Part shown: positions 28,696 through 40,718 of the stretch, in pieces
Layout of the letters: every line of letters starts with the position of its first letter
Numbering within the stretch: position 1 is the stretch's first letter
Assembly: GCA_963791285.1 (NCBI GenBank)
Contig: CAWBSC010000025.1
Coordinates: 92,520 to 156,519 of the forward strand
Direction: 5' to 3'
From: an uncultured delta proteobacterium
Lineage (GTDB): Bacteria > Desulfobacterota > Desulfobacteria > Desulfobacterales > SpSt-501
DNA: 64,000 nucleotides
Notes under the pieces: model-generated
The model's database searches: none
Seen by the model: only the letters and a program-made list of their open reading frames with translations
What the model was told of the DNA's origin: nothing
Made by a program: the position numbers and the translations under genes

Positions 28696-29547
28696 TCAGT
28701 TATTATTGGCATCGGCAAAATACTTGATCATCATCTCCCCGAGCTCCTTCGAACGCAGGGTGGCCGCCTCGACCGCGTTGATCAGGGTAGTGCGCAACCC
28801 GCCCTTTTCCAGGGTGTGGATGCCCGCGATGGCGGTGCCGCCGGGCGATGTGACCCGGTCCTTGAGCTGCCCCGGGTGCTCGCCCGTTTCCATCAGCATC
28901 TTGGCCGCGCCCATCACGGTTTGCGCCGCCAGGTACTGGGCGTCCTTGCGCGAGAGGCCCATCTTGACCCCTGCGTCGGCCAAGGCGTCCACGATGATGA
29001 AGATGTAGGCCGGTCCGCTGCCGCTCAGCCCCGTGATGGCGTCCATCAGGTAGTTCTCGCGCAGGAAGACCGTCTTGCCGACCGAGTTGAAGATGGACAT
29101 GGCGAGCTCGACATCCTCGCGACGCGCGTGCTTGCCTGCCGAGAGCGCGGTCGCCGACTCCTTGACCGAGGCGGCGATGTTGGGCATGACCCGGATCAGG
29201 CGCAGCTCCTTCTGCAGCAGCGACTCGATCGCGCGCAGCGGCACGCCGGCTGCGATCGAGACGACCAGCTTGGACATGTCGAGCAGATCCGCGGTCTCCT
29301 TCAGCACCTCGGCCATGAGCTGGGGTTTGACGGCGTAGATGAGGATCTCGCTCGCGCGCACGGCCTCGAGGTTGTCGGTCGACGTTTTGACCCCGTAGCG
29401 GGTGCGCAGCTCCTCGAGGCGCTCCTCGCGGGGGTCGGTGCAGATGATGTTCCCGGGCCGGGCCGACCCCGACAGCACGAGCCCGCTCACCAGCGCCTCG
29501 CCCATGTTGCCCGACCCGATAAAGCACAGCGTCTTGTCCTTCAGCAT
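28696..29547 (-). CDS. proC: pyrroline-5-carboxylate reductase
   Basis: Start at MLKDKTLCFIGSGNMGEALVSGL (ATG 29547, GGAGG upstream). The family block GLSGSGPAYIFIIVDALADAGV...VTSPGGTAIAGI is present. Confidence 0.9.
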   Translation of the reverse strand: MLKDKTLCFIGSGNMGEALVSGLVLSGSARPGNIICTDPREERLEELRTRYGVKTSTDNLEAVRASEILIYAVKPQLMAEVLKETADLLDMSKLVVSIAAGVPLRAIESLLQKELRLIRVMPNIAASVKESATALSAGKHARREDVELAMSIFNSVGKTVFLRENYLMDAITGLSGSGPAYIFIIVDALADAGVKMGLSRKDAQYLAAQTVMGAAKMLMETGEHPGQLKDRVTSPGGTAIAGIHTLEKGGLRTTLINAVEAATLRSKELGEMMIKYFADANNN

Positions 29548-29657
29548 GACCTCCGCCTCCCCGTGACGTGGATTGAGTCGGAACATGTAGAAACTCGACC
29601 TTGAATAGTCAAGGACAATGATGGGGCGCCGCGACAGGCGGCGGAGACGGCACGCTC

Positions 29658-29699
29658 TTGACAGCGCCGCAGCGAACGGGTTAGATATTGGTCTAACCA
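29658..29699 (+). promoter_or_regulatory. sigma70-like promoter with a GntR/FadR-type operator
   Basis: TTGACA (29658-29663), 17 nt, TTAGAT (29681-29686). The palindrome TGGTCTAACCA at 29689-29699 fits the GT-N-AC core typical of GntR-family operators. Lies between divergent proC and the GntR gene. Confidence 0.5.
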
Positions 29700-29726
29700 T
29701 TCTAACCGATCCCGCGAGAGTGCCGC

Positions 29727-30503
29727 ATGTTTCAATCCGCCAAGCCTACGAAAATCTTCCAGGATGTGGTGGCCCAGATCGAGGAGGCCATCCTGACCGG
29801 CCGACTGCAGACCGGGGAGACGCTGCCCTCGGAGCGCGAGCTGAAGGGCACCTTCCAGATCAGCCGGGGCACCTTGCGCGAGGCGCTGCGGGTGCTCGAG
29901 CAGAAGGGGCTGATCGAGATCCGCCTGGGCGTCGGCGGGGGTTCGGTCGTCAAGTCCGTCGAGGCCGGCTGCGTCAGCGAAAGCCTCGGCCTGCTCATCC
30001 GCTCGCAGAAGGTCTCGCTCAACCACCTGGCCGAATTCCGGGAGGAGCTGGAAGGCATCATTGCCGCCCAGGCGGCCGAACGACGCACCCCGGAGGACGT
30101 CGTGCGGTTGAACGCCCTGCTCGCGGAAGCGCGCGACTGCGTGGGCGCCGGGCCGGCCCGCCGGGACGAGTTTCTAGAGGCGGACAAGTGCATCCACCTG
30201 GCGGTGGCCGCCGCCACCGGCAACCCCCTGCACGTCAGCGTCCTGACCTCGATCCACGACAACATCCACCGCTACTACGACCGCTTCCTGTCGATGGACG
30301 GCGCCGAACTCGAGCAGAACTACCGAGACCTCTGCGACCTGGTGGCGGCCGTGACCCGCGGTTCGACCGCGGACGCGCGCCGCCTGGCCCAGGCGCACGT
30401 GGAGCGATTCAACCTGTTCATGCAACAGCGCGAGGCGCTGGAGTCGGCCGAGCCCGCACCTCGGGCCGGCCGGGCCGCGCCCCGCCGCAGGAGGCGACCA
30501 TGA
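29727..30503 (+). CDS. GntR-family transcriptional regulator, FadR-like C-terminal domain
   Basis: 258-aa ORF. Winged-HTH PSERELKGTFQISRGTLREALRVLEQKGLIEI, followed by an all-helical FCD-like domain. Confidence 0.88.
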   Translation: MFQSAKPTKIFQDVVAQIEEAILTGRLQTGETLPSERELKGTFQISRGTLREALRVLEQKGLIEIRLGVGGGSVVKSVEAGCVSESLGLLIRSQKVSLNHLAEFREELEGIIAAQAAERRTPEDVVRLNALLAEARDCVGAGPARRDEFLEADKCIHLAVAAATGNPLHVSVLTSIHDNIHRYYDRFLSMDGAELEQNYRDLCDLVAAVTRGSTADARRLAQAHVERFNLFMQQREALESAEPAPRAGRAAPRRRRRP

Positions 30504-32584
30504 CCCCCGGCAGAATCGACACCCACCCCGTCCTGACGGTGCCGGACCGGCGCCCGGTGGCGTTCACCTGGAACGGGGCGGCCCTCACCGGCTTCGAAAA
30601 CGAGATGCTCTCCTCGGCCCTGGTCGCCGCCGGGGTGCAGGTGTTCGGCCACCACCACAAGGACGGGAGCCCCCAGGGCCTCTTCTGCGCCAACGGCCAG
30701 TGCTCGCAGTGCCTGGTCATCGCCGACGGGCGGCCGGTCAAGGCCTGCATGACCCCCCTGCGCCCCGGGATGAGCGTCGCGTCGGTCGAGGGCCTGCCGC
30801 GGCTGCCGGCCGCAGACGCGCCGGCTGCGACCGCGGCGATCGAAACCGTCGCGCCCGATGTCCTGATCATCGGCGGCGGGCCGGCGGGGCTCTCGGCCGC
30901 GATCGAGCTGGGGAAACTCGGCGTCCGCACCCTGCTCATCGACGACAAGGACCGGCTGGGCGGCAAACTCGTGCTGCAGACCCACAAGTTCTTCGGCTCG
31001 GTCGAGGACTCCCATGCCGGGACCCGCGGCTTCGAGATCGGCGCCATCCTGGCCGAGGAGATCGGGCGGCTCCCTTCGGTCGAGGTCTGGCTCGACACCA
31101 CGGCCGTGGCGGTGTTCGCCGACCGGGTGGTGGGCGTCGTGCGCGGCGGGCGCTACGTCACCGTCCGTCCGCGGGCCCTGATGATCGCCACCGGCGCGCG
31201 CGAGCGCATGATCTCGTTCCCCGGCAACACCCTGCCGGGCGTCTACGGCGCCGGCGCCTTCCAGACCCTGGTCAACCGCGACCTGGTCAAGTCTTCGGAG
31301 CGCGTGCTCATCGTGGGCGGCGGCAACGTGGGGTTGATCGCCGGCTATCACGCCATCCAGGCCGGGATCGAGGTGGTCGCGCTGATCGAGGGGCTGCCCC
31401 AGGTCGGCGGCTACAAGGTGCACGCCGACAAGCTCGCGCGCCTGGGCGTCCCCATCTTCACCGCCCACACCATCGTCTGCGCCGCGGGCCGCGAGCGGGT
31501 CGAGTCGGCCACGATCGCCGCCCTCGACTCCGGCTGGAACGTCGTCCCGGGCACCGCGAAGCGCTTCGCGGTCGACACGGTCCTGATCGCCGTGGGGCTG
31601 GCCGAGGTGAACGAGTTCACCCTGAAGGCGAAGCAGTTCGGCATGGACGTCTTCCACGCGGGCGACGCCCAGGAGATCGCCGAGGCCTCGGCCGCCATGT
31701 TCACCGGCCGGATCGAGGGGCTCAAGATCGCCCGCCACCTCGGCGCGTACGAGGGCGAGGTCCCGCGCGAGTGGGACGAGAAGGCGGCCGTGCTGAAATC
31801 GCGCCCCGGGAAGGTCGCGCGGCGCGAACCGCCGCAGAAGGAGGACGGCGTCTTCCCGGTCTTCCACTGCTTCCAGGAAGTGCCCTGCAACCCGTGCACC
31901 TCGGTCTGCCCGAACCACTCCATCCGCACCGAGGGGGATCTCATCACCGGCCTGCCCTACCTCACCGACACCGACAGCTGCACCGGCTGCGCGGCCTGCG
32001 CAGCCGTCTGCCCGGGGCTCTCGATCACGCTGGTCGACTACCGCAAGGACCCGGAGCACCCGCTGGTGACCCTTCCCTACGAAATCCACCGCGACCGCGT
32101 CGAGCCCGGCCGGATGGTCCCGGTCACGGACGTGGACGGGGCGCTGCTCGGCCGCTTCCCGGTCGTAAAGGTCAAGGCCCGCAAGAAGTACCCCGGGACC
32201 CTGCTCGTGCAGGTGCGAGTCGACCGGGCGGTCGCCAAGCGCGCGGTCGGCATCTGGGTCCAGGAGCGCCAGGTCGACCCGGTGCCGATCTACGCCAAGG
32301 CGCCCCCGGCCGACGAGGCCGTCATCTGCCGCTGCGAGCGCGTCACCGCCGGCGACATCCGGGCGGCCATCCGCGCCGGCGTGCGCGACCTGAACCAGCT
32401 CAAGGCGCTCACCCGCGCCGGCATGGGGGCCTGCGGCTCCAAGACCTGCCGCCCCATGATCTGGCGCCTGTTCAAGGAGGAGGGAGTGGACCTCGGCACC
32501 GTCACCGACCGCGTGGACCGGCCGCTCTTCGTGGAGGTCCCGATCGGCGCCTTCGCCGGGACCCGGGAGGACTCTCATGACTGA
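30500..32584 (+). CDS. multidomain iron-sulfur flavoprotein, HcnA+HcnB / sarcosine-oxidase-alpha / PDH1-alpha-like (2Fe-2S, FAD/NAD(P) oxidoreductase, 2x4Fe-4S, BFD-like 2Fe-2S)
   Basis: ATG 30500 overlaps the GntR stop (ATGA), with AGGAGG upstream. N-terminal CANGQCSQCLV...KAC. Dinucleotide folds VLIIGGGPAGLSAA and VLIVGGGNVGLIAG. Ferredoxin-type motifs CNPCTSVCP and CTGCAACAAVCPG. BFD-like ICRCERVTAGDI...GACGSKTC. Confidence 0.8.
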   Translation: MTPGRIDTHPVLTVPDRRPVAFTWNGAALTGFENEMLSSALVAAGVQVFGHHHKDGSPQGLFCANGQCSQCLVIADGRPVKACMTPLRPGMSVASVEGLPRLPAADAPAATAAIETVAPDVLIIGGGPAGLSAAIELGKLGVRTLLIDDKDRLGGKLVLQTHKFFGSVEDSHAGTRGFEIGAILAEEIGRLPSVEVWLDTTAVAVFADRVVGVVRGGRYVTVRPRALMIATGARERMISFPGNTLPGVYGAGAFQTLVNRDLVKSSERVLIVGGGNVGLIAGYHAIQAGIEVVALIEGLPQVGGYKVHADKLARLGVPIFTAHTIVCAAGRERVESATIAALDSGWNVVPGTAKRFAVDTVLIAVGLAEVNEFTLKAKQFGMDVFHAGDAQEIAEASAAMFTGRIEGLKIARHLGAYEGEVPREWDEKAAVLKSRPGKVARREPPQKEDGVFPVFHCFQEVPCNPCTSVCPNHSIRTEGDLITGLPYLTDTDSCTGCAACAAVCPGLSITLVDYRKDPEHPLVTLPYEIHRDRVEPGRMVPVTDVDGALLGRFPVVKVKARKKYPGTLLVQVRVDRAVAKRAVGIWVQERQVDPVPIYAKAPPADEAVICRCERVTAGDIRAAIRAGVRDLNQLKALTRAGMGACGSKTCRPMIWRLFKEEGVDLGTVTDRVDRPLFVEVPIGAFAGTREDSHD

Positions 32585-33733
32585 AACCTACGACGCGATC
32601 GTGGTCGGCGCGGGGTCGGTCGGCATCCCGACCGCCATGGCACTCGGCGCGCGGGGGCTGCGCACGCTCGTCGTGGACCAGCACGCTTCCCCCGGCCAGG
32701 GCGAGAACAAGCACGCCATCGGCGGGGTGCGGGCCACGCACTCCGCGCCCGGGAAGATCCTGACCTGCATGCGCTCGATCCAGATCCTCTCGACCTGGAA
32801 GGAACTGCACGGGGACGACATCGAGTGGCTGCAGGGCGGCTACCTCTACCCGGTCTACCGCGAGGGCGACGCGGAGCTCTTGAAAAACCTGCTGCCGCTG
32901 CAGAAGTCCCACGGCCTGAAAATCGACTTCCTCGGCCCCGGCGAGGTGGCCTCCATCCTGCCGGGCATCGCAACCGAGGGGCTGCTCGGCGGGACCTTCG
33001 CCCCCGAGGACGGCTCCATGTCGCCGCTCCTGGTGGTGAACGCGTTTTACCGCCACGCGCTCGCCCACGGGGTCGCGTTCCGCTTCAAGGAGCGGGTCAC
33101 CGGCCTGCGGGTCGAGGGCGGGCGGGTCGCCGGGGTCGATACCGACCGCGGCCGGTACGAGTCCCCCGTGGTCGTGGACGCGGCCGGCCCGCTGTCGGCC
33201 GAGCTCAACGGGACGGCGGGCGTGCGCATCCCCGTGGTCCCGGACTGCCACGAGGCGGCCATCACCGAGCCGGTGCAGTCGTTCTTCCGGTGCATGGTGG
33301 TCGACATCCGGCCGGCGCCCGGCTCGAAGAACTTCTACTTCTACCAGAACCCGCACGGCCAGGTGGTCTTCTGCATCACCCCCGACCCGCCCATCGTGGG
33401 CACCGACCGCCGCGAGACCTCGGCCTTCCTGCCCCAGGTCTGCACGCCGGCTGGTCCACCTGCTGCCGCGCCTCGGCAACCTGCGGGTGCGCCGCACCTG
33501 GCGCGGGCTCTACCCCATGACCCCCGACGGCTCGCCGATCGTGGGCTGGAACCGGGAGGTCCAGGGCCTGCTGCACGCCACGGGCATGTGCGGCCAGGGC
33601 CTGATGCTCGGGCTCGGGGGTCGGCGAGATCGTCGCCCGCCTGGTCGCGGGCGCACCCGACCTGGACGACGAGACCATTCTGCGCGAGTTCTCGCCCTAC
33701 CGCGAGTTCAAGGGGATGGAGAAGCTGAAGTGA
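32577..33733 (+). pseudogene. FAD-dependent oxidoreductase, DAO family (HcnC / sarcosine-oxidase-beta / proline-dehydrogenase-beta-like), 2 frameshifts in this assembly
   Basis: MTETYDAIVVGAGSVGIPTAMALG. After an extra base near 33443 the sense continues in ORF 33487.. (RRTWRGLYPMTPDGSPIVGW...ATGMCGQGLMLG). After an extra G in a G-run near 33615 it ends ...EFSPYREFKGMEKLK, with TGA at 33731. Confidence 0.8.
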
Positions 33734-33740
33734 TGGAGCA

Positions 33741-33907
33741 TTCGGTGTCTTGGTGTTCAGGCATTTTGGTGTTTGGTGGCTTGTTGAACTTGCCGGTTGA
33801 TACGAACATCCGATCAACCCACCGCCTCTGCGCCTAAATACCCAATCACCCAAACACCTAAATACCCAAATACCTAAATACCCAGACACCCAAACACCTA
33901 AATACCC
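33741..33907. repeat. asymmetric GT-rich / CA-rich repeat hairpin, (CACCCAAA/CCTAAATA)n family
   Basis: The left arm TTCGGTGTCTTGGTGTTCAGGCATTTTGGTGTTTGGTGG (33741-33779) faces a 75-nt right arm CCTAAATACCCAATCACCCAAACACCTAAATACCCAAATACCTAAATACCCAGACACCCAAACACCTAAATACCC (33833-33907). An inner hairpin GGTTGAT...ATCAACC lies at 33795-33819. The element ends 35 nt before the aor start. Confidence 0.85.
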
Positions 33908-33942
33908 TTACACCTCGCGCGCAGCGCGAAAAGGAGCCCCCC

Positions 33943-36087
33943 ATGTCCACTTACGAGCTGAAACCCCTCAAGACCTTCGAGTACCGGCGGCCCGAGATCG
34001 ACAAGGGCTATGCCGGCCAGACCTTGCGGGTGGACCTGTCCGACGGCTCGATCACGACCCAGCCGGTCACCGCCCAGATGAAGCAGATGTTCATCGGCGG
34101 GAAGGGGTTCGACCTGTGGCTGCTGTGGAACGCGGTCACCCCCCGCACGCGCTGGGACGACCCGGAGAACGCCGTCTGCATTGCCTGCGGCCCGCTCGGC
34201 GGGACACCGGCCTACCCCGGTTCGGGCAAGAGCATCGCGGTCACGCTCTCGCCCCTGACGGGGGCCCCCATCGACTCGAACGTGGGGGGCTACTTCGGCC
34301 CCTACCTCAAGTTTGCGGGCTTCGACGCCCTCGAGCTGCGCGGCAAGACGGACTCCGGCCTGATCGTGTTCGTCGACGGCATCGAGAGCAAGGTGCACCT
34401 CTACCGGGGCACCGGCCTGCCGGAAGACTCGTACGCGCTCTCCGAGGTGCTGACCGCGCACTTCGCCCAGGGCAAGCCGCGCGACATCTCGGTCGTCTCG
34501 ACCGGCCCGGCCGCCCGCCACACGCTTTTCGGCTGCCTCAACTTCAGCTGGTACGACCCCAAGCGCAAGCGCGCCCGCTACAAGCAGGCAGGCCGCGGCG
34601 GGGTCGGGACGGTCTTCGCCCACAAGGGGATCAAGGCCCTGGTGGCCCGCTGGGACGCGGGCGTCAAGGTCGAGACCAACCGGCCGGCCGACGCCGAGCG
34701 CGTCAAGAAGGTGGCCCGGCTGCACGCCAAGGAAATCGTCGAGCTCGATCCCAAGCAGAACGAGATGGCCAAGATCGGCACAACCCATATCGTGACCATC
34801 ATGAACGACCACGACCTGCTGCCGACGCACAACTTCCGTTTCGGCCAGCACCGCGAGGCCGCCAACCTCGGCCAGGCCGTCTACCGCCGCATGTTCGACC
34901 CCGGCTACGACGGCTGCTGGATGGGCTGCACGGTCGCCTGCTCCCACGGGGTGCGGGATTTCACGCCCATGAGCGGGCCGTACGCGGGGCGCAGGGTCTT
35001 CGTCGACGGCCCGGAATACGAGACCGTCGCCGGCTGCGGGTCGCTGCTCGGCATCTTCGACGCGCACACGGTGACCGAGATCAACTTCTACTGCGACGCC
35101 TACGGGCTGGACACGATTTCGGTCGGGACGTCCATCGCCTTCGCCATGGAGTGTTACGAGATGGGGCTGATCGGGGCGAAGCAGACCGGCGGCCTCGAGC
35201 TCTACTTCGGCAACCGCGCGGCGGCCCTCGAGATCGTGCACCAGATGGCCCGCGGCGATGGGTTCGGCCGGATCGTCGGCGAGGGGGTGCGGCGCATGAA
35301 GGCCCGCTTCGCCGCCGAGTTCGGGGCCGACGCCGCGCTCATGGCCGACATCGGGATGGAGTCCAAGGGGCTCGAGTTCTCGGAGTACATGACCAAGGAA
35401 TCCCTCGCCCAGCAGGGCGGGTACGGTCTCGCGCTCAAGGGCCCGCAGCACGACGAAGCCTGGCTCATCTTCCTCGACATGGTGCACAACTTCATGCCGA
35501 CCTTCGAGCAGAAGGCCGAGGCGCTGCACTGGTTCCCGATGTTCCGCACCTGGTTCGGGCTCTGCGGGCTGTGCAAGCTGCCCTGGAACGACATCACCCC
35601 CGAGGACAACAAGGACACCCCCGAACCGGCCAAGGTCATGAAGCACGTCCAGTGGTATGCCGAGTACTTCAGCGCGGTCACGGGCCGGAACGCCGGGCCC
35701 GACGACCTCATCCGCATGAGCGAGGTGGTGTACACCTTCCAGCGGGTGTTCAACCTGCGCATGGGCTTCGGCCGGCGCGCGCATGACACCCTGCCCTACC
35801 GGGCGATCGGGCCGGTGACGGAGATCGAGTACGAGTCGCGCGTCGAGCGGTATGACACGCAGCTCACCGAGACGGTCAAAGCGGACATCGCCGGGCGGAC
35901 CACGGCCGAAAAGGTGCAGATGCTGCGCCGCTACCGCGAGGCCCAGTACGAGCGGCTCAAGGACGCGGTCTACCGGCGTCGCGGCTGGACCCCGGACGGT
36001 ATCCCCACGCTCGCCACGGTCACGCGGCTGGGGATCGACTTCCCGGAGGTCGTGGCGCTGCTGAAGGCCAACGGGGTGACGGCGTGA
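33943..36087 (+). CDS. aor: aldehyde:ferredoxin oxidoreductase family (tungstopterin enzyme)
   Basis: Intact 714-aa ORF. The N-terminal YAGQTLRVDLS...GGKGFDLWLLW and the Cys-rich DGCWMGCTVACSHG are typical of the AOR family. Confidence 0.9.
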   Translation: MSTYELKPLKTFEYRRPEIDKGYAGQTLRVDLSDGSITTQPVTAQMKQMFIGGKGFDLWLLWNAVTPRTRWDDPENAVCIACGPLGGTPAYPGSGKSIAVTLSPLTGAPIDSNVGGYFGPYLKFAGFDALELRGKTDSGLIVFVDGIESKVHLYRGTGLPEDSYALSEVLTAHFAQGKPRDISVVSTGPAARHTLFGCLNFSWYDPKRKRARYKQAGRGGVGTVFAHKGIKALVARWDAGVKVETNRPADAERVKKVARLHAKEIVELDPKQNEMAKIGTTHIVTIMNDHDLLPTHNFRFGQHREAANLGQAVYRRMFDPGYDGCWMGCTVACSHGVRDFTPMSGPYAGRRVFVDGPEYETVAGCGSLLGIFDAHTVTEINFYCDAYGLDTISVGTSIAFAMECYEMGLIGAKQTGGLELYFGNRAAALEIVHQMARGDGFGRIVGEGVRRMKARFAAEFGADAALMADIGMESKGLEFSEYMTKESLAQQGGYGLALKGPQHDEAWLIFLDMVHNFMPTFEQKAEALHWFPMFRTWFGLCGLCKLPWNDITPEDNKDTPEPAKVMKHVQWYAEYFSAVTGRNAGPDDLIRMSEVVYTFQRVFNLRMGFGRRAHDTLPYRAIGPVTEIEYESRVERYDTQLTETVKADIAGRTTAEKVQMLRRYREAQYERLKDAVYRRRGWTPDGIPTLATVTRLGIDFPEVVALLKANGVTA

Positions 36088-36281
36088 TCCGCGTCGGCGA
36101 CCGGGAACGTCCCTGGCGGGAGGGGATGACGATCGCCGACGTGCTGCGTGAGTGCGCCGACGCCGGGGACACGCCGGTCGTGCGCCTGGACGAGCACTAC
36201 GTCTCACGCCGGGACTTCGCCTCCACCCCGGTGCCGGACGGCTGCCAGATCTATCTGCTCCCCACGATCGCCGGCGGCTAA
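36084..36281 (+). CDS. MoaD/ThiS-family ubiquitin-like sulfur-carrier protein
   Basis: 65 aa ending ...LLPTIAGG. The GTG start overlaps the aor stop (GTGA). Confidence 0.72.
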   Translation: MIRVGDRERPWREGMTIADVLRECADAGDTPVVRLDEHYVSRRDFASTPVPDGCQIYLLPTIAGG

Positions 36282-36689: not shown

Positions 36690-36890
36690 TTTTAATAGCA
36701 TAGCGGACCCTGCCCCTGCCGGCGGCGACCGTCGTCTGCCCGTGCCCGCCTCAAGTTTTCCTGCGATCGGCCGAAAATGGTTGTGTGCGGGTGCCGGCGC
36801 AGCGGCGACGTCGCCCCCACGGTCGCCTGTTGTGAGCCGGCGCACAGGGACCCGCGCCACACTCTCAACCTCATTCACGCCGGGGAGGCC

Positions 36891-37193
36891 ATGTCGATTC
36901 TGGGAAGCAACTTTCTCGACGCCGCCGCGAACGTTCTCGGGTTTGCGCTCAACATGTACATGTGGATCATCATCGCGCGCGCCGTGCTGTCCTGGGTGAG
37001 CCCGGACCCGTACAACCCCATCGTGCGGTTCGTCCACACCGTGACCGAGCCGGTACTCTACCAGGTGCGGCGACGGCTGCCGGCGTCCTTCGGCGGCATG
37101 GACCTGTCGCCGGTGATCGTCCTCATGGTGATCATGTTCCTGGAGCGCTTCGTGGTGGACAGCCTCCACCAACTGGCTGCCGGCGTGCGGTAG
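36891..37193 (+). CDS. yggT: YggT family membrane protein
   Basis: 100 aa from ATG 36891 (GGGGAGG upstream). MYMWIIIARAVLSWVSPDPYNPIVRFVHTVTEPVL is the typical YggT motif. Confidence 0.82.
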   Translation: MSILGSNFLDAAANVLGFALNMYMWIIIARAVLSWVSPDPYNPIVRFVHTVTEPVLYQVRRRLPASFGGMDLSPVIVLMVIMFLERFVVDSLHQLAAGVR

Positions 37194-37214
37194 CCCAACA
37201 GGAGACCCTCACCC

Positions 37215-37721
37215 ATGGCACTCACACCGCTTGACATCCAGCAGCAGCGCTTCCGGACGGCGTTCCGGGGCTACGAGACCAAGGAGGTCGAGACCTTTCT
37301 CGAGCAGGCGGCGGCCGCCTTCGAGGACCTGCAGCGCGAGACCCTGCGCCTGAACGAAGAGCTCACGCGGTCCGCGGCGGAGATCGAGGAGTTCAAGCGC
37401 CGCGAGGGCACGATCAAGCGCGCCCTGCTCCACTCCCAGAAGGTTCTTGACCAGATGCAGGAAAACGCCCGCCGCGAGGCCGACGTCATCGTGGCCGAAG
37501 CGGAAAACAAGGCCGAAAAGCTCCTGCAGCACACCCAGAGCCGGGTCGCGCAGCTGCAGGAGTCGGTCGCGGAGCTCAAGCGCCAGCGAATCCAGGCCGA
37601 AGCGGAGATCACCTTCGTGATCGAGTCCCACCGCAAGCTCCTCGAGGCCGGGCGCGCCGCCACCCGCGGGTTGGACGAGATGGACGACAAGCTGAAGATC
37701 CTCAAGACGGCCAACTCGTAA
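37215..37721 (+). CDS. divIVA: DivIVA domain-containing protein
   Basis: 168 aa. MALTPLDIQQQRFRTAFRGYETKEVETFL is the canonical DivIVA N-terminus, followed by coiled coil. Confidence 0.85.
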   Translation: MALTPLDIQQQRFRTAFRGYETKEVETFLEQAAAAFEDLQRETLRLNEELTRSAAEIEEFKRREGTIKRALLHSQKVLDQMQENARREADVIVAEAENKAEKLLQHTQSRVAQLQESVAELKRQRIQAEAEITFVIESHRKLLEAGRAATRGLDEMDDKLKILKTANS

Positions 37722-37781
37722 CCGGCCGCCGCAGCCGGACGGGCAACCCGCCCCTCGACGGAAAGGCACTGAAGGGCACCT

Positions 37782-38864
37782 ATGGCGAAAATCGACGCGT
37801 TCTTCAAGCTGATGCACGAGCAGGGCGCCTCCGACCTGCACCTGGTGGCCGGCCAGCCGCCCGCGCTGCGCATCCGCGGCGAGATCGAGCGGGTCAAGTA
37901 CAAGGTCCTGACCAGCGACGACCTGCGGGCCATGCTTTACGAGATCACCCCCGAGCACAAGATCAAGGTCTTCGAGGAAACCGGGGACATCGATTTCGGT
38001 TACGAGATCCCGGGGCTGGCCCGCTACCGCGCCAACTACTTCATGCAGAAAAACGGGGTCGGGGCCGTCTTCCGCGAGATCCCGAACACCATCATGACGG
38101 CCGAGCAGCTCGGACTGCCTCCGGTGATCTCGAAGCTCGCCATGCTGCCCCGCGGCCTGATCCTGGTGACGGGGCCCACCGGCAGCGGCAAGTCCACGAC
38201 CCTCGCCTCGGTCATCGACGTCTCCAACCGCAACCGCAAGGACCACATCATCACGGTCGAGGACCCGATCGAGTTCGTCCACCAGAGCCAGGGCTGCATC
38301 ATCAACCAGCGCGAGGTCGGAATCCACACCAAGAGCTTCTCGGCCGCGCTGCGCGGGGCGCTGCGCGAGGACCCGGACATCATCCTGGTCGGCGAAATGC
38401 GCGACCTGGAGACCATCTCGCTCGCCGTGGAGGCGGCCACCACCGGCCACCTGGTCTTTTCGACCCTGCATACCTCGAGCGCGGCCAAGACGGTCGACCG
38501 CGTAATCGAAGTCTTCCCCTCGCAGGAACAGGCGCTCATCCGCTCCACCCTGGCCGATGGCATTCGAGCCGTGATTTCGCAGGTGCTTTTCAAGCGCATC
38601 GACAAGATCGGGCGCATCGTCGCCCTCGAGATCCTGATCGGCACCCCGGGCGTGCGCAACCTGATCCGCGAGGGCAAGAGCCACCAGATCCCCTCCATGA
38701 TCCAGACCGGCAAGAAGTACGGCATGACGCTGCTCGACGACTCGATCATGGAGCTCTTCAAGCGCGGGGCCATCAGCGCCGAGGATGCCTATGCCAAGTC
38801 GAACGAGAAGGCGCGCTTCCGACCGCTGCTGAGGGGCGTGCCGAGCGACTTCACGGAGGCGTGA
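37782..38864 (+). CDS. pilT: type IV pilus twitching-motility ATPase PilT
   Basis: 360 aa. Walker A GPTGSGKSTT. PilT signature AHLVFSTLHT-like GHLVFSTLHTSSAAKTVDRVI. GMxTLDxS-like GMTLLDDS. Confidence 0.92.
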   Translation: MAKIDAFFKLMHEQGASDLHLVAGQPPALRIRGEIERVKYKVLTSDDLRAMLYEITPEHKIKVFEETGDIDFGYEIPGLARYRANYFMQKNGVGAVFREIPNTIMTAEQLGLPPVISKLAMLPRGLILVTGPTGSGKSTTLASVIDVSNRNRKDHIITVEDPIEFVHQSQGCIINQREVGIHTKSFSAALRGALREDPDIILVGEMRDLETISLAVEAATTGHLVFSTLHTSSAAKTVDRVIEVFPSQEQALIRSTLADGIRAVISQVLFKRIDKIGRIVALEILIGTPGVRNLIREGKSHQIPSMIQTGKKYGMTLLDDSIMELFKRGAISAEDAYAKSNEKARFRPLLRGVPSDFTEA

Positions 38865-38868
38865 GAAC

Positions 38869-40036
38869 GTGAAAAAGCAAGAGATCGACCACATCCTGGT
38901 CAAGATGCTCGACTCCCACCGGGAGGTGTCCGACCTGAACTTCACGGTCGGCAAACCCATGCAGGTGGAGAGCTCGGGCGAGTTGTTGCCGGTCGAGATG
39001 CGCGGCAGCAGCAAGCCGCTCACGCCCTTTCAGACCGAGGTGATCGCACTGAACCTCATCAATCAGGAGCGCCGCCTCACCGAGGCGGTGCTCAAGACCG
39101 GCTCCTGCGACCTCTCCTACGCGCTGCCCGGCAAGGCGCGCTTCCGCGTCAACATCTTCTCCCAGGGCGGCAATTTCTCGATCGTGTGCCGCAAGCTCGA
39201 GTCCAAGATCCCCACCATCGAGGAGCGCGGGCTGCCCAAGGCCCTGTATCAGATCGCCAAGGAGAAGAACGGGATCGTGTTCGTGACCGGCGCCACGGGC
39301 TCGGGCAAGACGACCAGCCTCGCCGCCGTGCTGGACGACATCAACGAGCGCCGCTCGGTCCACGTCATCACGCTCGAGGACCCGGTCGAGTACCAGCACC
39401 CCCACAAGAAGTCGACCTTCAACCAGCGCGAGCTCGGCATGGATTTCGACCACTACTCCAGCGGGCTGCGCGCCGCGCTGCGCCAGGCCCCCAAGGTGAT
39501 CCTGGTGGGCGAGATGCGCGACCGCGAAACGGTGGAGATCGGCCTGAGCGCCGCCGAGACCGGACACCTGGTGCTGACCACCCTGCACACCACGGACGCC
39601 GGCTCGACCATCAACCGCATCCTCGGCATGTTCCCGAACGAGGACGAGCAGCAGATCCGCATCCGACTGGCGGACGCCCTGCGCTGGATCGTCTGCCAGC
39701 GCCTGCTGCCCAAGGTCGGCGGCGGGCGGGTCGCGGCCTTTGAAGTTCTCGGGACCAGCCTGCGGGTCAAGGACGCGATCCTGAACGGCGAAGCCGAGGG
39801 CCGAGACCTTCTACGACATCATGGAGGCCGGCACCGCCTTCGGCATGCTCACCTTCGACCAGAACCTGGTCTCGCTGTTCGAGCAGGGCCTGATCACGCA
39901 GGAAACGGCCATGGGGTATGCCTCGCACCGGGGTTCGGTCGGGCGCGGGATCGACATGATCAAGAGCGCCCGCGGCGAGGCCACGACCGACATCGGCAAG
40001 CTGGAGATCGACAAGGCCTACAACCAGATGATCTGA
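38869..40036 (+). pseudogene. PilT/PilU-family retraction ATPase paralogue, 1 frameshift in this assembly
   Basis: GTG start. Walker A GATGSGKTTS, then GHLVLTTLHTTDAGSTINRIL. After an extra base near 39804 the sense continues in ORF 39821..40036 (FYDIMEAGTAFGMLTFDQNLVSLFEQGLITQETA). Confidence 0.85.
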
Positions 40037-40067
40037 GGGGGGACGACCGAGGACCCCGGGGACGACC

Positions 40068-40718
40068 ATGAACATCACCTGCAGTCACTGCCGGAGCCAG
40101 TTCAAGATCGCGCACGACAAATTCCCGCCGGGCGCGCGCTCGGCCGCCTTCACCTGCCCCAAGTGTCAGACCCGCGTGACGGTCGACGCCCCGCCGCCCG
40201 CCCCCGGGCCCTCCAAGGTGTCCCTGAACGAGATCGACACCAGCGCCTACAACCCGGCCGACCGCCCCTTCGACTTCGTCGAGGAGGAAGGCAAAACCGC
40301 GCTGGTGTGCGAGCAGCACCCGTTGATCCGCAAACCGATCCTCGAAAACCTGGAGCTGATGGAGTATCAGATCACGGTCGCCGAAAGCGCCCGCGACGCC
40401 CTCAAGCGCATGCGCTACCACCTCTACGACCTGGTGGTGGTGAACGAGGACTTCGACACGGACACGCCCGACGCCAACGGAGTGCTGATCTATCTCGAAC
40501 GCCTGGGCATGGCCGCGCGGCGCAACACCTTCGTCGCGATGATCACCGGCCGCCACCGCACCATGGACTACATGACCGCCTTCATGAAGAGCGTCAACCT
40601 GATCGTCAACACGAAGAACATCGACGACTTCGCCAAGATCCTCAGCCGCGGCCTGACCGACCACCTCGCCTTCTACCGGATTCTGCGGGAGAAGCTGCAC
40701 GAGTTCGGCCGCACCTGA
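40068..40718 (+). CDS. zinc-ribbon (MJ0042-type CxxC...CxxC) protein with a receiver-like C-terminal domain
   Basis: 216 aa. MNITCSHCRSQFKI...FTCPKCQTRV. The C-terminal TALVCEQHP...YDLVVVNEDF...FVAMITG has a CheY-like pattern. Confidence 0.7.
   Translation: MNITCSHCRSQFKIAHDKFPPGARSAAFTCPKCQTRVTVDAPPPAPGPSKVSLNEIDTSAYNPADRPFDFVEEEGKTALVCEQHPLIRKPILENLELMEYQITVAESARDALKRMRYHLYDLVVVNEDFDTDTPDANGVLIYLERLGMAARRNTFVAMITGRHRTMDYMTAFMKSVNLIVNTKNIDDFAKILSRGLTDHLAFYRILREKLHEFGRT

What the first reader, a model, noticed from the sequence alone, without database searches (positions are those of the whole stretch)
28696..36281. GntR-controlled HcnABC/proline-dehydrogenase-like flavoprotein pair coupled to a tungsten AOR and a MoaD-like protein, divergent from proC
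The cluster reads: proC, divergent promoter with operator, GntR/FadR regulator, a 694-aa fusion (2Fe-2S + FAD/NAD oxidoreductase + 2x4Fe-4S + BFD-like 2Fe-2S), a DAO-family beta subunit, AOR, and a MoaD/ThiS-like protein. The first overlaps are ATGA/ATG-type, implying co-translation.

The alpha/beta pair resembles archaeal PDH1-type L-proline dehydrogenase, opine/sarcosine oxidases and HCN synthase. All of these oxidise a C-N bond of an amino acid and release an imine or aldehyde. With proC next door, one coherent hypothesis is a ferredoxin-linked proline route. In it, proline is converted to P5C/glutamate semialdehyde by the flavoprotein, and AOR then oxidises the semialdehyde to glutamate. 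That would replace the usual NAD-dependent P5C dehydrogenase. I do not know of this pairing having been described, and the substrate is not established by the sequence.
Basis: inference. Interest (0 to 1): 0.6.

Follow-up and report, generated by a model that had tools for sequence, protein, structure and literature searches.

The report
Proline-type dehydrogenase operon with tungsten oxidoreductase
A sulfate-reducer relative carries a repressor-controlled operon that joins an archaeal-type proline dehydrogenase pair to an uncharacterised long tungsten-type aldehyde oxidoreductase; the enzyme probably turns the aldehyde made from proline or ornithine into glutamate, which would give this enzyme clade a first natural job, though no experiment has tested it.

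Summary
- The beta (DAO) gene carries two +1 frameshifts in this assembly. Near-identical metagenome contigs from three studies lack both extra bases, so these are probably assembly errors.
- proC ends at 29548.
- A 209-bp repeat hairpin separates beta from the AOR.

GntR-alpha-beta-AOR-MoaD is kept in at least four different gene arrangements in Desulfobacterales, and as AOR-alpha-beta in Asgard archaea. In those independent settings the neighbours are ornithine cyclodeaminase-family genes, ornithine carbamoyltransferase, carbamate kinase, an arginine-synthetase-like gene, a class-III aminotransferase and Liv-type transporters. A profile of beta matches the Pyrococcus L-proline dehydrogenase beta subunit at 238 bits; the next solved structure scores 121.

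This supports a proline/ornithine to glutamate-semialdehyde to glutamate route with a ferredoxin-type AOR. No substrate has been tested.

The genome also has PutA and ProA. The AOR and alpha/beta also occur without each other.

A rival reading is that the AOR makes the semialdehyde for proline synthesis: proC-AOR-MoaD units exist, and proBA loss is enriched in AOR-carrying genomes.

No searched paper describes the pairing. This scan reached the same reading before on other DNA (e1-3578219, e1-3862475, e1-5453444, e1-4250428).

The parts
28696..29548 (-). proC, pyrroline-5-carboxylate reductase (284 aa). A divergent neighbour, probably not part of the operon.
   Evidence: TIGR00112 at 293.5 bits against a cut-off of 196.8, plus P5CR_dimer and F420_oxidored. 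The start MLKDKT was read. The adjacency is part of a long syntenic block.
29658..29699 (+). Promoter-like TTGACA-17-TTAGAT followed by the GntR/FadR-type operator TGGTCTAACCA (29689-29699).
   Evidence: Sequence read. It is the single match in the window, against 0.14 expected. TGGT-N3-ACCA is conserved upstream of the GntR gene in 28 of 29 usable loci.
29727..30503 (+). GntR-family regulator of the FadR subfamily (wHTH + FCD), 258 aa.
   Evidence: PF00392 at 64.5 bits and PF07729 at 71.8 bits. It is found next to alpha and/or AOR in about 30 loci.
30500..32584 (+). Alpha subunit, 694 aa: [2Fe-2S] Fer2_4, FAD and NAD(P) Rossmann folds, 2x[4Fe-4S], and a BFD-like [2Fe-2S] with an SO_alpha_A3-like C-terminus.
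   Evidence: Pfam and NCBIfam hits. PDB hits are SoxA 2GAG_A and PH1363 1Y56_A. Invariant Cys and Gly motifs appear in alignment A1. There are thousands of homologues, with the 120 listed at 73-96% identity.
32577..33733 (+). Beta subunit (DAO-family FAD dehydrogenase; 384 aa when read through). In this assembly two single extra bases, at about 33446 and about 33610, interrupt it.
   Evidence: PF01266 at 136 bits on the first frame, and the DAO C-terminus on the next frame. The three frames are shown. The extra bases are absent from contigs X1, X2 and X3. The read-through is collinear with L001 beta. The profile scores 238 bits against 1Y56_B.
33734..33942 (+). Spacer with a GU-rich/CA-rich imperfect hairpin repeat (a dispersed family) and the AOR ribosome-binding site.
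   Evidence: Sequence read. The fold is -66.2 kcal/mol against a shuffle mean of -45, z = -5.1. No consensus promoter or terminator was found. Contigs break or pile up there.
33943..36087 (+). Long-form AOR-family tungsten/molybdenum-pterin oxidoreductase, 714 aa.
   Evidence: AFOR_N and AFOR_C. The Cys ligands, the Glu313 and His448 equivalents and the DxxGxD motif are conserved against 1AOR. It belongs to a distinct long-AOR clade (100/100) and is single-copy in 55 of 201 genomes of the class.
36084..36281 (+). MoaD/ThiS-like beta-grasp protein, 65 aa, ending in Gly-Gly; its GTG start overlaps the AOR stop.
   Evidence: PF02597 at 30.7 bits. The overlap was read. It follows the AOR in nearly all bacterial loci.

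Best explanation
This is a five-gene unit under a FadR-type GntR repressor. The repressor binds TGGTCTAACCA, which overlaps its own promoter.

The proposed route:
1. Alpha and beta form a heteromeric iron-sulfur flavoprotein of the archaeal L-proline dehydrogenase (PDH) type. Here the small Fe-S subunits of related enzymes are fused into alpha.
2. Beta (FAD) oxidises the C-N bond of L-proline, taken up or made from ornithine or arginine, to pyrroline-5-carboxylate.
3. Electrons pass through the flavins and the four Fe-S clusters of alpha to NAD(P)+ or ferredoxin.
4. Pyrroline-5-carboxylate opens spontaneously to glutamate-5-semialdehyde.
5. The long-form tungsten/molybdenum-pterin AOR oxidises the semialdehyde to glutamate and reduces ferredoxin. 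It does the job of NAD-dependent P5C dehydrogenase.
6. The MoaD-like protein serves pterin-cofactor sulfur supply for this AOR.

Shown here:
- the domain architectures;
- conservation of the operator;
- conserved linkage of AOR with alpha/beta across rearrangements and across domains of life;
- the arginine/ornithine/proline neighbours;
- the closeness of beta to PDH1 beta.

Inferred:
- the substrate (L-proline) and the AOR substrate (glutamate semialdehyde);
- the electron acceptors;
- the effector of the repressor;
- the role of MoaD.
For: Architecture:
- The domain hits are, with invariant cluster cysteines and two dinucleotide folds in alpha.

Linkage with the AOR:
- GntR-alpha-beta-AOR-MoaD, or a variant, occurs in 26 bacterial loci of 80 seeded on alpha. 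These include divergent forms (MoaD<AOR<GntR< >alpha>beta in L006, L020, L029 and L052) and copies outside the proC/YggT synteny (L024, L026, L028, L032, L033). AOR>alpha>beta occurs in 5 Asgard-type archaeal loci.
- At genome level, 17 of about 21 sampled genomes with alpha at 65% identity or more have the AOR within 5 kb, and 3 more have a variant alpha adjacent.
- In the AOR tree, the alpha/beta-linked bacterial and Asgard AORs are nearest relatives (84/78) inside a 100/100 long-AOR clade. The next cluster (P0128, 52% identity) has no such neighbours.

Neighbours outside the synteny:
- OCD/mu-crystallin genes in 6-7 loci.
- OTC (TIGR00658, 360 bits against a cut-off of 281).
- Carbamate kinase (TIGR00746, 383 against 358).
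- An acetylornithine-aminotransferase-family protein (NF004426, 638 against 552).
- An ArcE-like gene upstream of the Asgard AOR (PMC11032458).
- ProRS in Thermoplasmatota loci.
- Liv-type ABC transporters in 8-18 loci.
- proC>AOR>MoaD, with gaps of about 20-110 bp, in 6 of 6 genomes of one family.

Beta:
- The profile scores 238 bits against 1Y56_B, with E = 9e-70 and a full-length alignment. Glycine oxidase scores 121 and SoxB 103.
- The Arg-X-Trp FMN motif of this enzyme family (PMC4575208) is present as R-T-W and is invariant.

Operator and MoaD:
- The operator is conserved.
- MoaD-like genes in aor operons are known, and their products are not part of the purified enzyme (PMC6365974).
Against: - There is no biochemical or expression evidence for any step.
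- Within Desulfobacterales, AOR-MoaD sits at the proC/YggT-DivIVA-PilT block with or without alpha/beta. Part of the adjacency may therefore be inherited gene order rather than selected.
- The coupling is not obligatory. Alpha/beta has no AOR within the fetched flank (up to 10 kb) in the Anaerolineae, Acidobacteriota, Cloacimonadota, Aminicenantes and Thermoplasmatota loci. The AOR orthologue occurs in genomes where alpha was not found (family f21, 0 of 6). In G160 the two lie 650 kb apart.
- This genome already has a canonical PutA, and ProA as well, so nothing is 'missing'.
- PDH-type enzymes also oxidise pipecolate (PMC4141209), and relatives act on D-hydroxyproline, opines and glycine. Beta could not be compared with HcnC, LhpB or OoxB.
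- In L028 and L032 the aminotransferase sits beside a methylmalonate-semialdehyde-dehydrogenase-type gene, which points to other omega-amino acids.
- The beta gene of this assembly is broken as it stands.
Confidence: 0.55

Rival explanations
1. The AOR works mainly in the reductive direction. It reduces glutamate to glutamate-5-semialdehyde with reduced ferredoxin, the product cyclises, and ProC reduces it to proline. This would be an ATP-free bypass of ProB/ProA. On this reading alpha/beta is a separate, catabolic add-on in some lineages.
For: - proC>AOR>MoaD is codirectional and tightly spaced, with no alpha/beta, in all 6 sampled genomes of family f21. G127 has proC< >AOR.
- Both proB and proA were not found in 9 of 55 AOR-carrying genomes (5 families, 91-97% complete), against 2 of 146 genomes without the AOR.
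- AOR-family enzymes can reduce acids (PMC6365974).
Against: - 8 of the 9 genomes without ProBA have OCD-family genes, which can make proline from ornithine.
- This genome and the f21 genomes keep proA.
- Acid reduction by AORs runs at under 0.3% of the oxidation rate and is endergonic with ferredoxin-range donors (PMC6365974).
- The genomes are related and incomplete, so the enrichment is only a hint.
- The neighbours in Asgard and Desulfobacteraceae loci are catabolic (carbamate kinase, OTC, ArcE-like).
Confidence: 0.13
2. Alpha/beta oxidises another secondary or N-alkyl amine, and the AOR removes whichever aldehyde results. Candidate substrates are L-pipecolate, D-proline, hydroxyproline, sarcosine or another N-methyl amino acid, or an opine-like compound. 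Candidate aldehydes are 2-aminoadipate semialdehyde, 2-oxoglutarate semialdehyde and formaldehyde.
For: - The enzyme family spans L-ProDH, D-HypDH, opine dehydrogenases and HCN synthase (PMC4575208).
- PDH1-type enzymes also oxidise pipecolate, and OCD-family members include Pyr2C/Pip2C reductases and lysine cyclodeaminase (PMC4141209). The OCD-family neighbour scored below every NCBIfam cut-off.
- Alpha lacks the folate-binding domain of SoxA, so any aldehyde would be released free.
- A methylmalonate-semialdehyde-type dehydrogenase lies nearby in L028 and L032.
Against: - OTC, carbamate kinase, the ArcE-like gene, ProRS and proC all point to arginine, ornithine or proline rather than lysine, sarcosine or opines.
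- Among solved structures, beta is twice as close to PDH1 beta as to sarcosine or dimethylglycine enzymes.
- No hydroxyproline epimerase or Pyr4H2C deaminase genes were seen among the conserved neighbours.
Confidence: 0.2
3. The adjacency has no pathway meaning. The AOR is a general aldehyde scavenger, or serves an unrelated housekeeping role at the YggT-DivIVA locus, and the flavoprotein operon merely landed beside it.
For: - AOR-MoaD stays next to YggT-DivIVA-PilT across the order whether or not alpha/beta is present.
- The genome has about 8-9 AOR paralogues.
Against: - The AOR stays beside alpha/beta in loci away from that block, after an inversion, and in Asgard archaea.
- A GntR gene with the same operator precedes either alpha or the AOR.
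- The orthologue is single-copy, with a clean identity gap (65% or more against 44% or less) to the paralogues.
Confidence: 0.07

Closest known systems
Dye-linked heteromeric L-proline dehydrogenases of Thermococcales (PDH1 alpha4beta4, P. horikoshii PH1363/PH1364, PDB 1Y56; the alpha-beta-gamma-delta form PDH2)
   Same: - Beta is a DAO-family FAD subunit with the Arg-X-Trp motif, and it is the best solved match by a wide margin.
- Alpha is an FAD/NAD(P) Rossmann subunit with an N-terminal ferredoxin-like beta-grasp domain.
- It is linked with OCD-family genes, as in Thermococcus litoralis (PMC4141209).
   Different: - Alpha is a 694-aa fusion. It keeps the [2Fe-2S] cysteines, which PH1363 has lost (PMC1949818), and adds a 2x[4Fe-4S] module and a BFD-like [2Fe-2S].
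- From my own recollection, not checked here, PDH2 carries such clusters on separate small subunits.
- The host is a mesophilic bacterium.
- It is coupled to an AOR and a GntR repressor.
- Activity has not been tested.
AOR family of tungsten enzymes (P. furiosus AOR 1AOR and FOR 1B25; Aromatoleum AorABC 8C0Z; WOR5; BamB)
   Same: - It has AFOR_N and AFOR_C, the [4Fe-4S] cysteines, the Glu/His active-site pair and a pterin-binding DxxGxD motif.
- A MoaD-like gene lies in the operon, as with aorD and aorE (PMC6365974).
   Different: - It is about 100 residues longer.
- The cluster motif is CxxxCxxxC instead of CxxCxxxC, and the second pterin-motif Asp aligns with Gly.
- It is roughly equidistant from AOR, AorB and FOR (160-180 bits) and forms its own clade.
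- No dedicated polyferredoxin or FAD subunit is encoded, unless alpha plays that role (untested).
- The metal is unknown.
PutA / P5C dehydrogenase route of proline catabolism
   Same: The proposed net chemistry is the same: proline to P5C/glutamate semialdehyde to glutamate.
   Different: - Both steps use non-homologous enzymes: a DAO-type flavoprotein instead of the Pro_dh TIM barrel, and a pterin enzyme instead of an NAD-dependent ALDH.
- Electrons would leave at low potential.
- This genome has a PutA as well.
Arginine synthetase / ADI-type arginine catabolism with ornithine aminotransferase (Thermococcus kodakarensis; PMC11032458)
   Same: In Asgard loci the AOR-alpha-beta unit is flanked by an ArcE-like gene, OTC, carbamate kinase and a class-III aminotransferase.
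   Different: - Those genes are absent from this window.
- The published pathway ends at ornithine or proline and names no enzyme that oxidises glutamate semialdehyde.
Heterotetrameric sarcosine oxidase, HCN synthase HcnABC, opine and D-hydroxyproline dehydrogenases
   Same: The modular plan is the same: a 2Fe-2S protein, an FAD/NAD alpha and a DAO beta (PMC4575208).
   Different: - There is no folate-binding (GCV_T) domain.
- SoxB scores less than half of PDH1 beta.
- Here the small subunit is fused to alpha.
- The neighbours are not those of opine, hydroxyproline or cyanide systems.

Membership tests
Heteromeric PDH-type L-proline dehydrogenase (beta subunit) | DAO-family fold with an N-terminal ADP-binding GxGxxG motif | tested here: met
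   PF01266 scores 136 bits. VVGAGSVG is at residues 9-16, and G11, G13 and G16 are invariant in alignment A3.
Heteromeric PDH-type L-proline dehydrogenase (beta subunit) | Arg-X-Trp motif proposed as the FMN site at the alpha/beta interface (PMC4575208) | tested here: met
   R-T-W appears in the read-through sequence. R306 and W308 are invariant in 21 orthologues, and the motif aligns with RTW of 1Y56_B.
Heteromeric PDH-type L-proline dehydrogenase (beta subunit) | Closer to characterised PDH beta than to other DAO-family enzymes | tested here: inconclusive
   Among solved structures the answer is yes: 238 bits against 121 or less. HcnC, LhpB and OoxB/OdhB have no solved structure and could not be fetched for a tree.
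Heteromeric PDH-type L-proline dehydrogenase | Oxidises L-proline to P5C with dye or natural acceptors | not testable with these tools
   This needs an enzyme assay.
Heteromeric PDH-type L-proline dehydrogenase (alpha subunit) | FAD/NAD(H) Rossmann subunit with an N-terminal ferredoxin-like domain | tested here: met
   Fer2_4 scores 84.7 bits and Pyr_redox_2 89.1 bits. GGGPAG and GGGNVG are invariant. 1Y56_A matches at E = 2.5e-18. Unlike PH1363, the four cluster cysteines are kept.
AOR family (tungsten/molybdenum bis-pterin oxidoreductases) | AFOR_N plus AFOR_C domains | tested here: met
   The scores are 159.9 and 336.6 bits.
AOR family | Four Cys ligands of the [4Fe-4S] cluster and the Glu313/His448 equivalents | tested here: met
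   C325, C329, C333 and C544, plus E360 and H503, align with 1AOR and are invariant in A2. The spacing of the first three is CxxxCxxxC.
AOR family | Contains tungsten and oxidises aldehydes with ferredoxin | not testable with these tools
   Metal content and activity need purified protein.
Known AOR subfamilies (AOR, FOR, GAPOR, WOR4, WOR5, XOR, BamB) | Falls inside one named subfamily | tested here: not met
   It scores nearly the same against AOR, AorB and FOR (160-180 bits) and lower against WOR5 and BamB. It sits in a separate long-AOR clade with 100/100 support. GAPOR matches only at 30 bits.
GntR family, FadR subfamily | N-terminal winged HTH plus a C-terminal FCD domain, and a palindromic TNGT-N3-ACNA operator | tested here: met
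   PF00392 and PF07729 hit. The operator is conserved in 28 of 29 usable loci. Binding and the effector are untested.
MoaD/ThiS sulfur carriers | Small beta-grasp protein ending in Gly-Gly | tested here: met
   PF02597 scores 30.7 bits and the C-terminus reads ...TIAGG. Thiocarboxylate formation cannot be tested here.
Heterotetrameric sarcosine oxidase (SoxABDG) | Alpha subunit with a C-terminal folate-binding aminomethyltransferase domain; score above the family cut-off | tested here: not met
   TIGR01372 scores 153 bits against a cut-off of 1164 and covers only the N-terminal 420 positions. No GCV_T domain is present. soxB scores 55 bits against a cut-off of 529.
HCN synthase HcnABC, opine dehydrogenase and D-hydroxyproline dehydrogenase | Orthology of beta to HcnC, OdhB or LhpB | not tested
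Gene context argues against it.

The most novel reading that the evidence does not exclude
The long AOR is a reversible glutamate / glutamate-5-semialdehyde:ferredoxin oxidoreductase. In anaerobes that have lost proB and proA it, together with ProC, is the route of proline synthesis: an ATP-independent, ferredoxin-driven replacement of the universal glutamate kinase / glutamyl-phosphate reductase pair. With the PDH-type flavoprotein the same enzyme closes a low-potential proline-to-glutamate catabolic route.
Probability: 0.13. Interest if true: 0.8.

Novelty: new variant of a known kind. Interest (0 to 1): 0.6.

Why it matters
- AOR-family tungsten enzymes are widespread in anaerobes, yet most clades, including FOR, WOR4 and WOR5, have no established physiological substrate. 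A clade tied by gene context in both bacteria and Asgard archaea to arginine/ornithine/proline breakdown makes that question directly testable with one substrate, P5C/glutamate semialdehyde.
- It would add a ferredoxin-yielding step to amino-acid oxidation in sulfate reducers and in syntrophic sediment archaea. That changes the energy and hydrogen budgets assumed in metabolic reconstructions of these groups, where the genes are currently labelled 'sarcosine oxidase' and 'aldehyde ferredoxin oxidoreductase'.
- The fused 694-aa alpha shows how the multi-subunit PDH, opine and HCN-synthase enzyme plan can be condensed.
- The conserved operator gives a ready handle for finding the inducer.

Tried and rejected
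1. Complex prediction of the AOR with alpha residues 436-694 (the ferredoxin-like and BFD part) gave no verdict (score 0.00). It says nothing about binding either way.
2. I tested whether the AOR replaces ProA. proA is over its cut-off in 186 of 201 sampled genomes, including this one, so no general replacement occurs. The residual enrichment of proBA loss among AOR carriers is kept only as a rival reading.
3. proC adjacency as evidence for the substrate was rejected as lineage synteny.
4. Paper searches for proline dehydrogenase or glutamate semialdehyde together with aldehyde ferredoxin oxidoreductase, and for sarcosine oxidase with AOR and carbamate kinase, found nothing relevant. One search failed on a syntax error.
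5. A tree of beta against HcnC, LhpB, OoxB and PDH2 could not be built, because no tool gave me those reference sequences.
6. Context look-ups of the more distant long-AOR clusters gave either a polyferredoxin/ThiS context without proline genes (P0128) or contigs too short to tell (P0130, P0131).
7. A consensus promoter and terminator scan of the beta-AOR spacer found nothing.
8. RNA runs hold only small shares of the stretch, and the single read-laying run went on the frameshift question. There is therefore no expression evidence.
9. Stretches of the spacer without contig cover (33768-33824) were not interpreted.

Full report
**What is in the window**

The region 28.7-36.3 kb holds the genes below. 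All but proC lie on the plus strand.

| Gene | Coordinates | Main evidence |
|---|---|---|
| proC (minus strand) | 28696-29548 | TIGR00112, 293 bits |
| GntR/FadR-type regulator | 29727-30503 | PF00392 + PF07729 |
| alpha, 694 aa | 30500-32584 | Fer2_4, Pyr_redox_2, two 4Fe-4S motifs, Fer2_BFD, weak SO_alpha_A3 |
| beta, DAO family | 32577-33733 | PF01266 |
| AOR, 714 aa | 33943-36087 | AFOR_N 160 bits, AFOR_C 337 bits |
| ThiS/MoaD-like, 65 aa, ends GG | 36084-36281 | PF02597 |

- The start/stop overlaps are ATGA (GntR/alpha), ATGACTGA (alpha/beta) and GTGA (AOR/MoaD).
- In an alignment of 19 alpha homologues, all cysteines of the two [2Fe-2S] and two [4Fe-4S] sites are invariant or nearly so, as are both dinucleotide-binding glycine motifs.

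**Corrections to the observation**

- Beta is not one open frame in this assembly. It runs through three frames with two +1 shifts.
- Contigs of near-identical organisms from three metagenome studies lack one base at 33446 and one at 33610.
- Taking those two bases out gives a 384-aa protein collinear with the 384-aa orthologue in locus L001.
- The genome has 26 contigs and 77.7% completeness. Other genes are split the same way: three AOR paralogues and an OCD-like gene.
- I therefore read the breaks as assembly indel errors, or at most a strain-private lesion. The population has an intact gene.
- The 209-bp beta-AOR spacer carries a GU/CA hairpin repeat (z = -5.1). That repeat is the subject of another note of this scan.

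**Regulation**

- TGGTCTAACCA lies at 29689-29699, directly after TTGACA-17-TTAGAT and 28 bp before the GntR start codon.
- It is the only TGGTYNRACCA in the 64 kb.
- A TGGT-N3-ACCA element lies upstream of the orthologous GntR gene in 28 of 29 usable loci, including distant ones at 46% protein identity.
- This is good comparative support for an autoregulated FadR-type repressor site. The effector is unknown.

**Is the AOR really coupled to the flavoprotein?**

Alpha has thousands of relatives. Eighty loci seeded on alpha were fetched from species-representative genomes and mapped by tblastn.
- GntR>alpha>beta>AOR>MoaD is found in about 20 Desulfobacterales loci.
- A divergent form, MoaD<AOR<GntR< >alpha>beta, is found in L006, L020, L029 and L052.
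- Copies outside the local synteny are found in L024, L026, L028, L032 and L033.
- AOR>alpha>beta is found in five Asgard-type archaeal loci (L045, L069, L072, L073, L078), with AOR identity of 55-57%.

In a sample of 201 genomes of the class:
- The AOR orthologue is single-copy in 55 genomes. It shows 65-83% identity, with a clean gap to paralogues at 43-44%.
- 17 of about 21 genomes with alpha at 65% identity or more have the AOR within 5 kb.
- Three more have a variant alpha beside it.

A maximum-likelihood tree gives the following.
- All these AORs fall in a 'long AOR' clade (100/100), apart from ordinary 600-aa AORs.
- The bacterial and Asgard alpha/beta-linked groups are sisters, with moderate support (84/78).
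- AORs without an adjacent alpha/beta nest inside the bacterial group.
- The next cluster (P0128, 52% identity) sits with a polyferredoxin and has no amino-acid genes.

The coupling is therefore real but not obligatory.
- Alpha/beta has no AOR within the fetched flank (up to 10 kb) in the Anaerolineae, Acidobacteriota, Cloacimonadota, Aminicenantes and Thermoplasmatota loci.
- Family f21 has the AOR but no alpha was found there (0 of 6 genomes).

**What the proC clue is worth**

- The whole block NrdD<ChaN<Trx<MauE<proC< ... >YggT>DivIVA>PilT>PilT is syntenic in about 17 loci.
- AOR-MoaD sits at this block across the order even where alpha/beta is missing: YggT< >AOR>MoaD in genus g30, and YggT< >proC>AOR>MoaD in family f21.
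- proC next door is thus mostly inherited gene order. By itself it says little about the substrate.
- The f21 arrangement has proC and AOR codirectional, with gaps of about 20-110 bp. It is a hint in its own right (see the rival reading below).

**Independent evidence for the substrate**

Away from that synteny the cluster keeps other company.
- OCD/mu-crystallin genes lie directly upstream of GntR or alpha in 6-7 bacterial loci.
- In the Asgard loci the order is [ArcE-like]>AOR>alpha>beta>OTC>carbamate kinase, with a class-III aminotransferase nearby.
  - OTC: TIGR00658, 360 bits against a cut-off of 281.
  - Carbamate kinase: TIGR00746, 383 against 358.
  - Aminotransferase: NF004426, 638 against 552.
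- The 450-aa gene upstream of the Asgard AOR has no Pfam hit. Its nearest atlas clusters are 'putative GTPase' and cyclic-2,3-diphosphoglycerate-synthetase-like proteins. That is the similarity reported for arginine synthetase ArcE (PMC11032458), so calling it ArcE-like is an inference.
- Prolyl-tRNA synthetase lies near alpha/beta in Thermoplasmatota loci.
- Liv-type amino-acid ABC transporters accompany alpha/beta in 8-18 loci.

All of these converge on arginine, citrulline, ornithine and proline, whose common oxidation intermediate is P5C/glutamate semialdehyde.

A profile of 21 beta orthologues matches the beta subunit of Pyrococcus horikoshii L-proline dehydrogenase (1Y56_B) over its full length.
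- The score is 238 bits, against 121 for glycine oxidase and 103 for SoxB.
- The match includes the Arg-X-Trp motif of this enzyme family (PMC4575208).
- OCD-family genes are also clustered with heteromeric L-ProDH genes in Thermococcus litoralis (PMC4141209).

**Mechanism proposed**

- Beta oxidises L-proline to P5C.
- Electrons travel through the flavins and the Fe-S chain of the fused alpha to NAD(P)+ or ferredoxin.
- P5C opens to the semialdehyde.
- The AOR oxidises the semialdehyde to glutamate with ferredoxin, or possibly with alpha's ferredoxin-like module.
- MoaD serves cofactor synthesis, as suggested for aorD and aorE of Aromatoleum (PMC6365974).

The AOR has the family's cluster cysteines (spaced CxxxCxxxC), the Glu313 and His448 equivalents and the first pterin motif. 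The Asp of the second pterin motif aligns with Gly. All substrate, acceptor and effector assignments are inferences.

**Evidence against, and rival readings**

- This genome has a second, canonical locus: OCD-like, DAO, Liv transporter genes and a 1258-aa PutA. It also has proA. The AOR route is therefore an addition here, not a replacement.
- PDH-type enzymes are promiscuous; they also oxidise pipecolate (PMC4141209).
- I could not compare beta with HcnC, LhpB or OoxB.
- In L028 and L032 the aminotransferase sits by a methylmalonate-semialdehyde-type dehydrogenase.
- Another secondary amine with another aldehyde therefore remains possible. I rate this at about 0.2.

A more novel rival is that the AOR works reductively, making the semialdehyde for ProC.
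- Besides the proC-AOR-MoaD units, proB and proA were both not found in 9 of 55 AOR-carrying genomes, against 2 of 146 others.
- Against this, 8 of those 9 have OCD-family genes that can supply proline from ornithine.
- The genomes are related and incomplete.
- Acid reduction by AORs is slow and uphill (PMC6365974).
- I rate this reading at about 0.13.

Pure coincidence of adjacency rates about 0.07.

**Novelty**

- Each component family is known.
- The pairing of a PDH-type dehydrogenase with an AOR, and glutamate semialdehyde as an AOR substrate, appeared in none of the papers I could search.
- Within this scan the same reading was reached before on other DNA: a sulfate-reducer relative with a related AOR (e1-3578219), Clostridia (e1-3862475, e1-1376400), Synergistales (e1-4250428) and a Loki-type archaeon (e1-5453444). 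Those are unchecked AI notes, not independent evidence.
- What I tested here agrees with them. This report adds the genome-level co-occurrence figures, the conserved operator, the synteny caveat about proC, the frameshift diagnosis and the proBA observation.

**Verdict**

- This is a new variant of a known kind. Interest is 0.6.

Noticed in passing
window 33730-33945: The beta-AOR spacer folds into a long GU-rich/CA-rich imperfect hairpin (-66 kcal/mol, z = -5.1). Metagenome contigs break or pile up there (depth 813 at 33825-33881). It looks like a dispersed repeat family inserted into an otherwise 60-110-bp spacer.
   Followed up: partly
own genome C23:74000-93000 (L102): This is a second proline/ornithine locus. 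It holds an OCD-like gene split over two frames, a stand-alone 392-aa DAO flavoprotein, two Liv-type binding proteins with permeases and an ATPase, and a 1258-aa PutA (Pro_dh + Aldedh).
   Followed up: partly
own genome (C3:199205-200077, C3:578882-579914, C8:67168-68124) and window 33446, 33610: Several genes are split by single-base frameshifts, and completeness is only 77.7% for 26 contigs. The assembly seems indel-prone, so other 'pseudogenes' in this window should be read with care.
   Followed up: partly
sampled genomes of the class (G039, G046, G049, G079, G143, G181, G066, G089, G156; G024, G140): Both proB and proA were not found in 11 of 201 genomes. Nine of the 11 carry the long AOR orthologue, and eight of those nine also have OCD-family genes.
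   Followed up: partly
L082-L087 (family f21): proC>AOR>MoaD is codirectional, with gaps of about 20-110 bp, next to YggT-DivIVA-PilT. No alpha was found in those genomes at E <= 1e-100.
   Followed up: partly
L095-L097 (genus g22); genus g30 genomes: In g22 a variant alpha with a different C-terminal half sits next to the AOR. In g30 a second alpha clade (51-56% identity) lies unlinked to the AOR.
   Followed up: no
L073:8668-9942 and L026:11779-13158: A ThiC-family radical-SAM gene (NF009895, 494 bits) lies between the AOR and alpha in one Asgard locus and near the cluster in one bacterial locus.
   Followed up: no
L045:5094-6458, L069:6187-7533, L072:718-2064, L073:4253-5665: A 450-aa gene with no Pfam hit lies directly upstream of the Asgard AOR. 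Its nearest atlas clusters are 'putative GTPase' and cDPG-synthetase-like proteins, so it is probably an ArcE arginine synthetase homologue.
   Followed up: partly
window 36699-40718: YggT, DivIVA, two PilT-type ATPases and a zinc-ribbon/receiver protein follow the cluster. This block is syntenic with the AOR locus across the whole order.
   Followed up: partly
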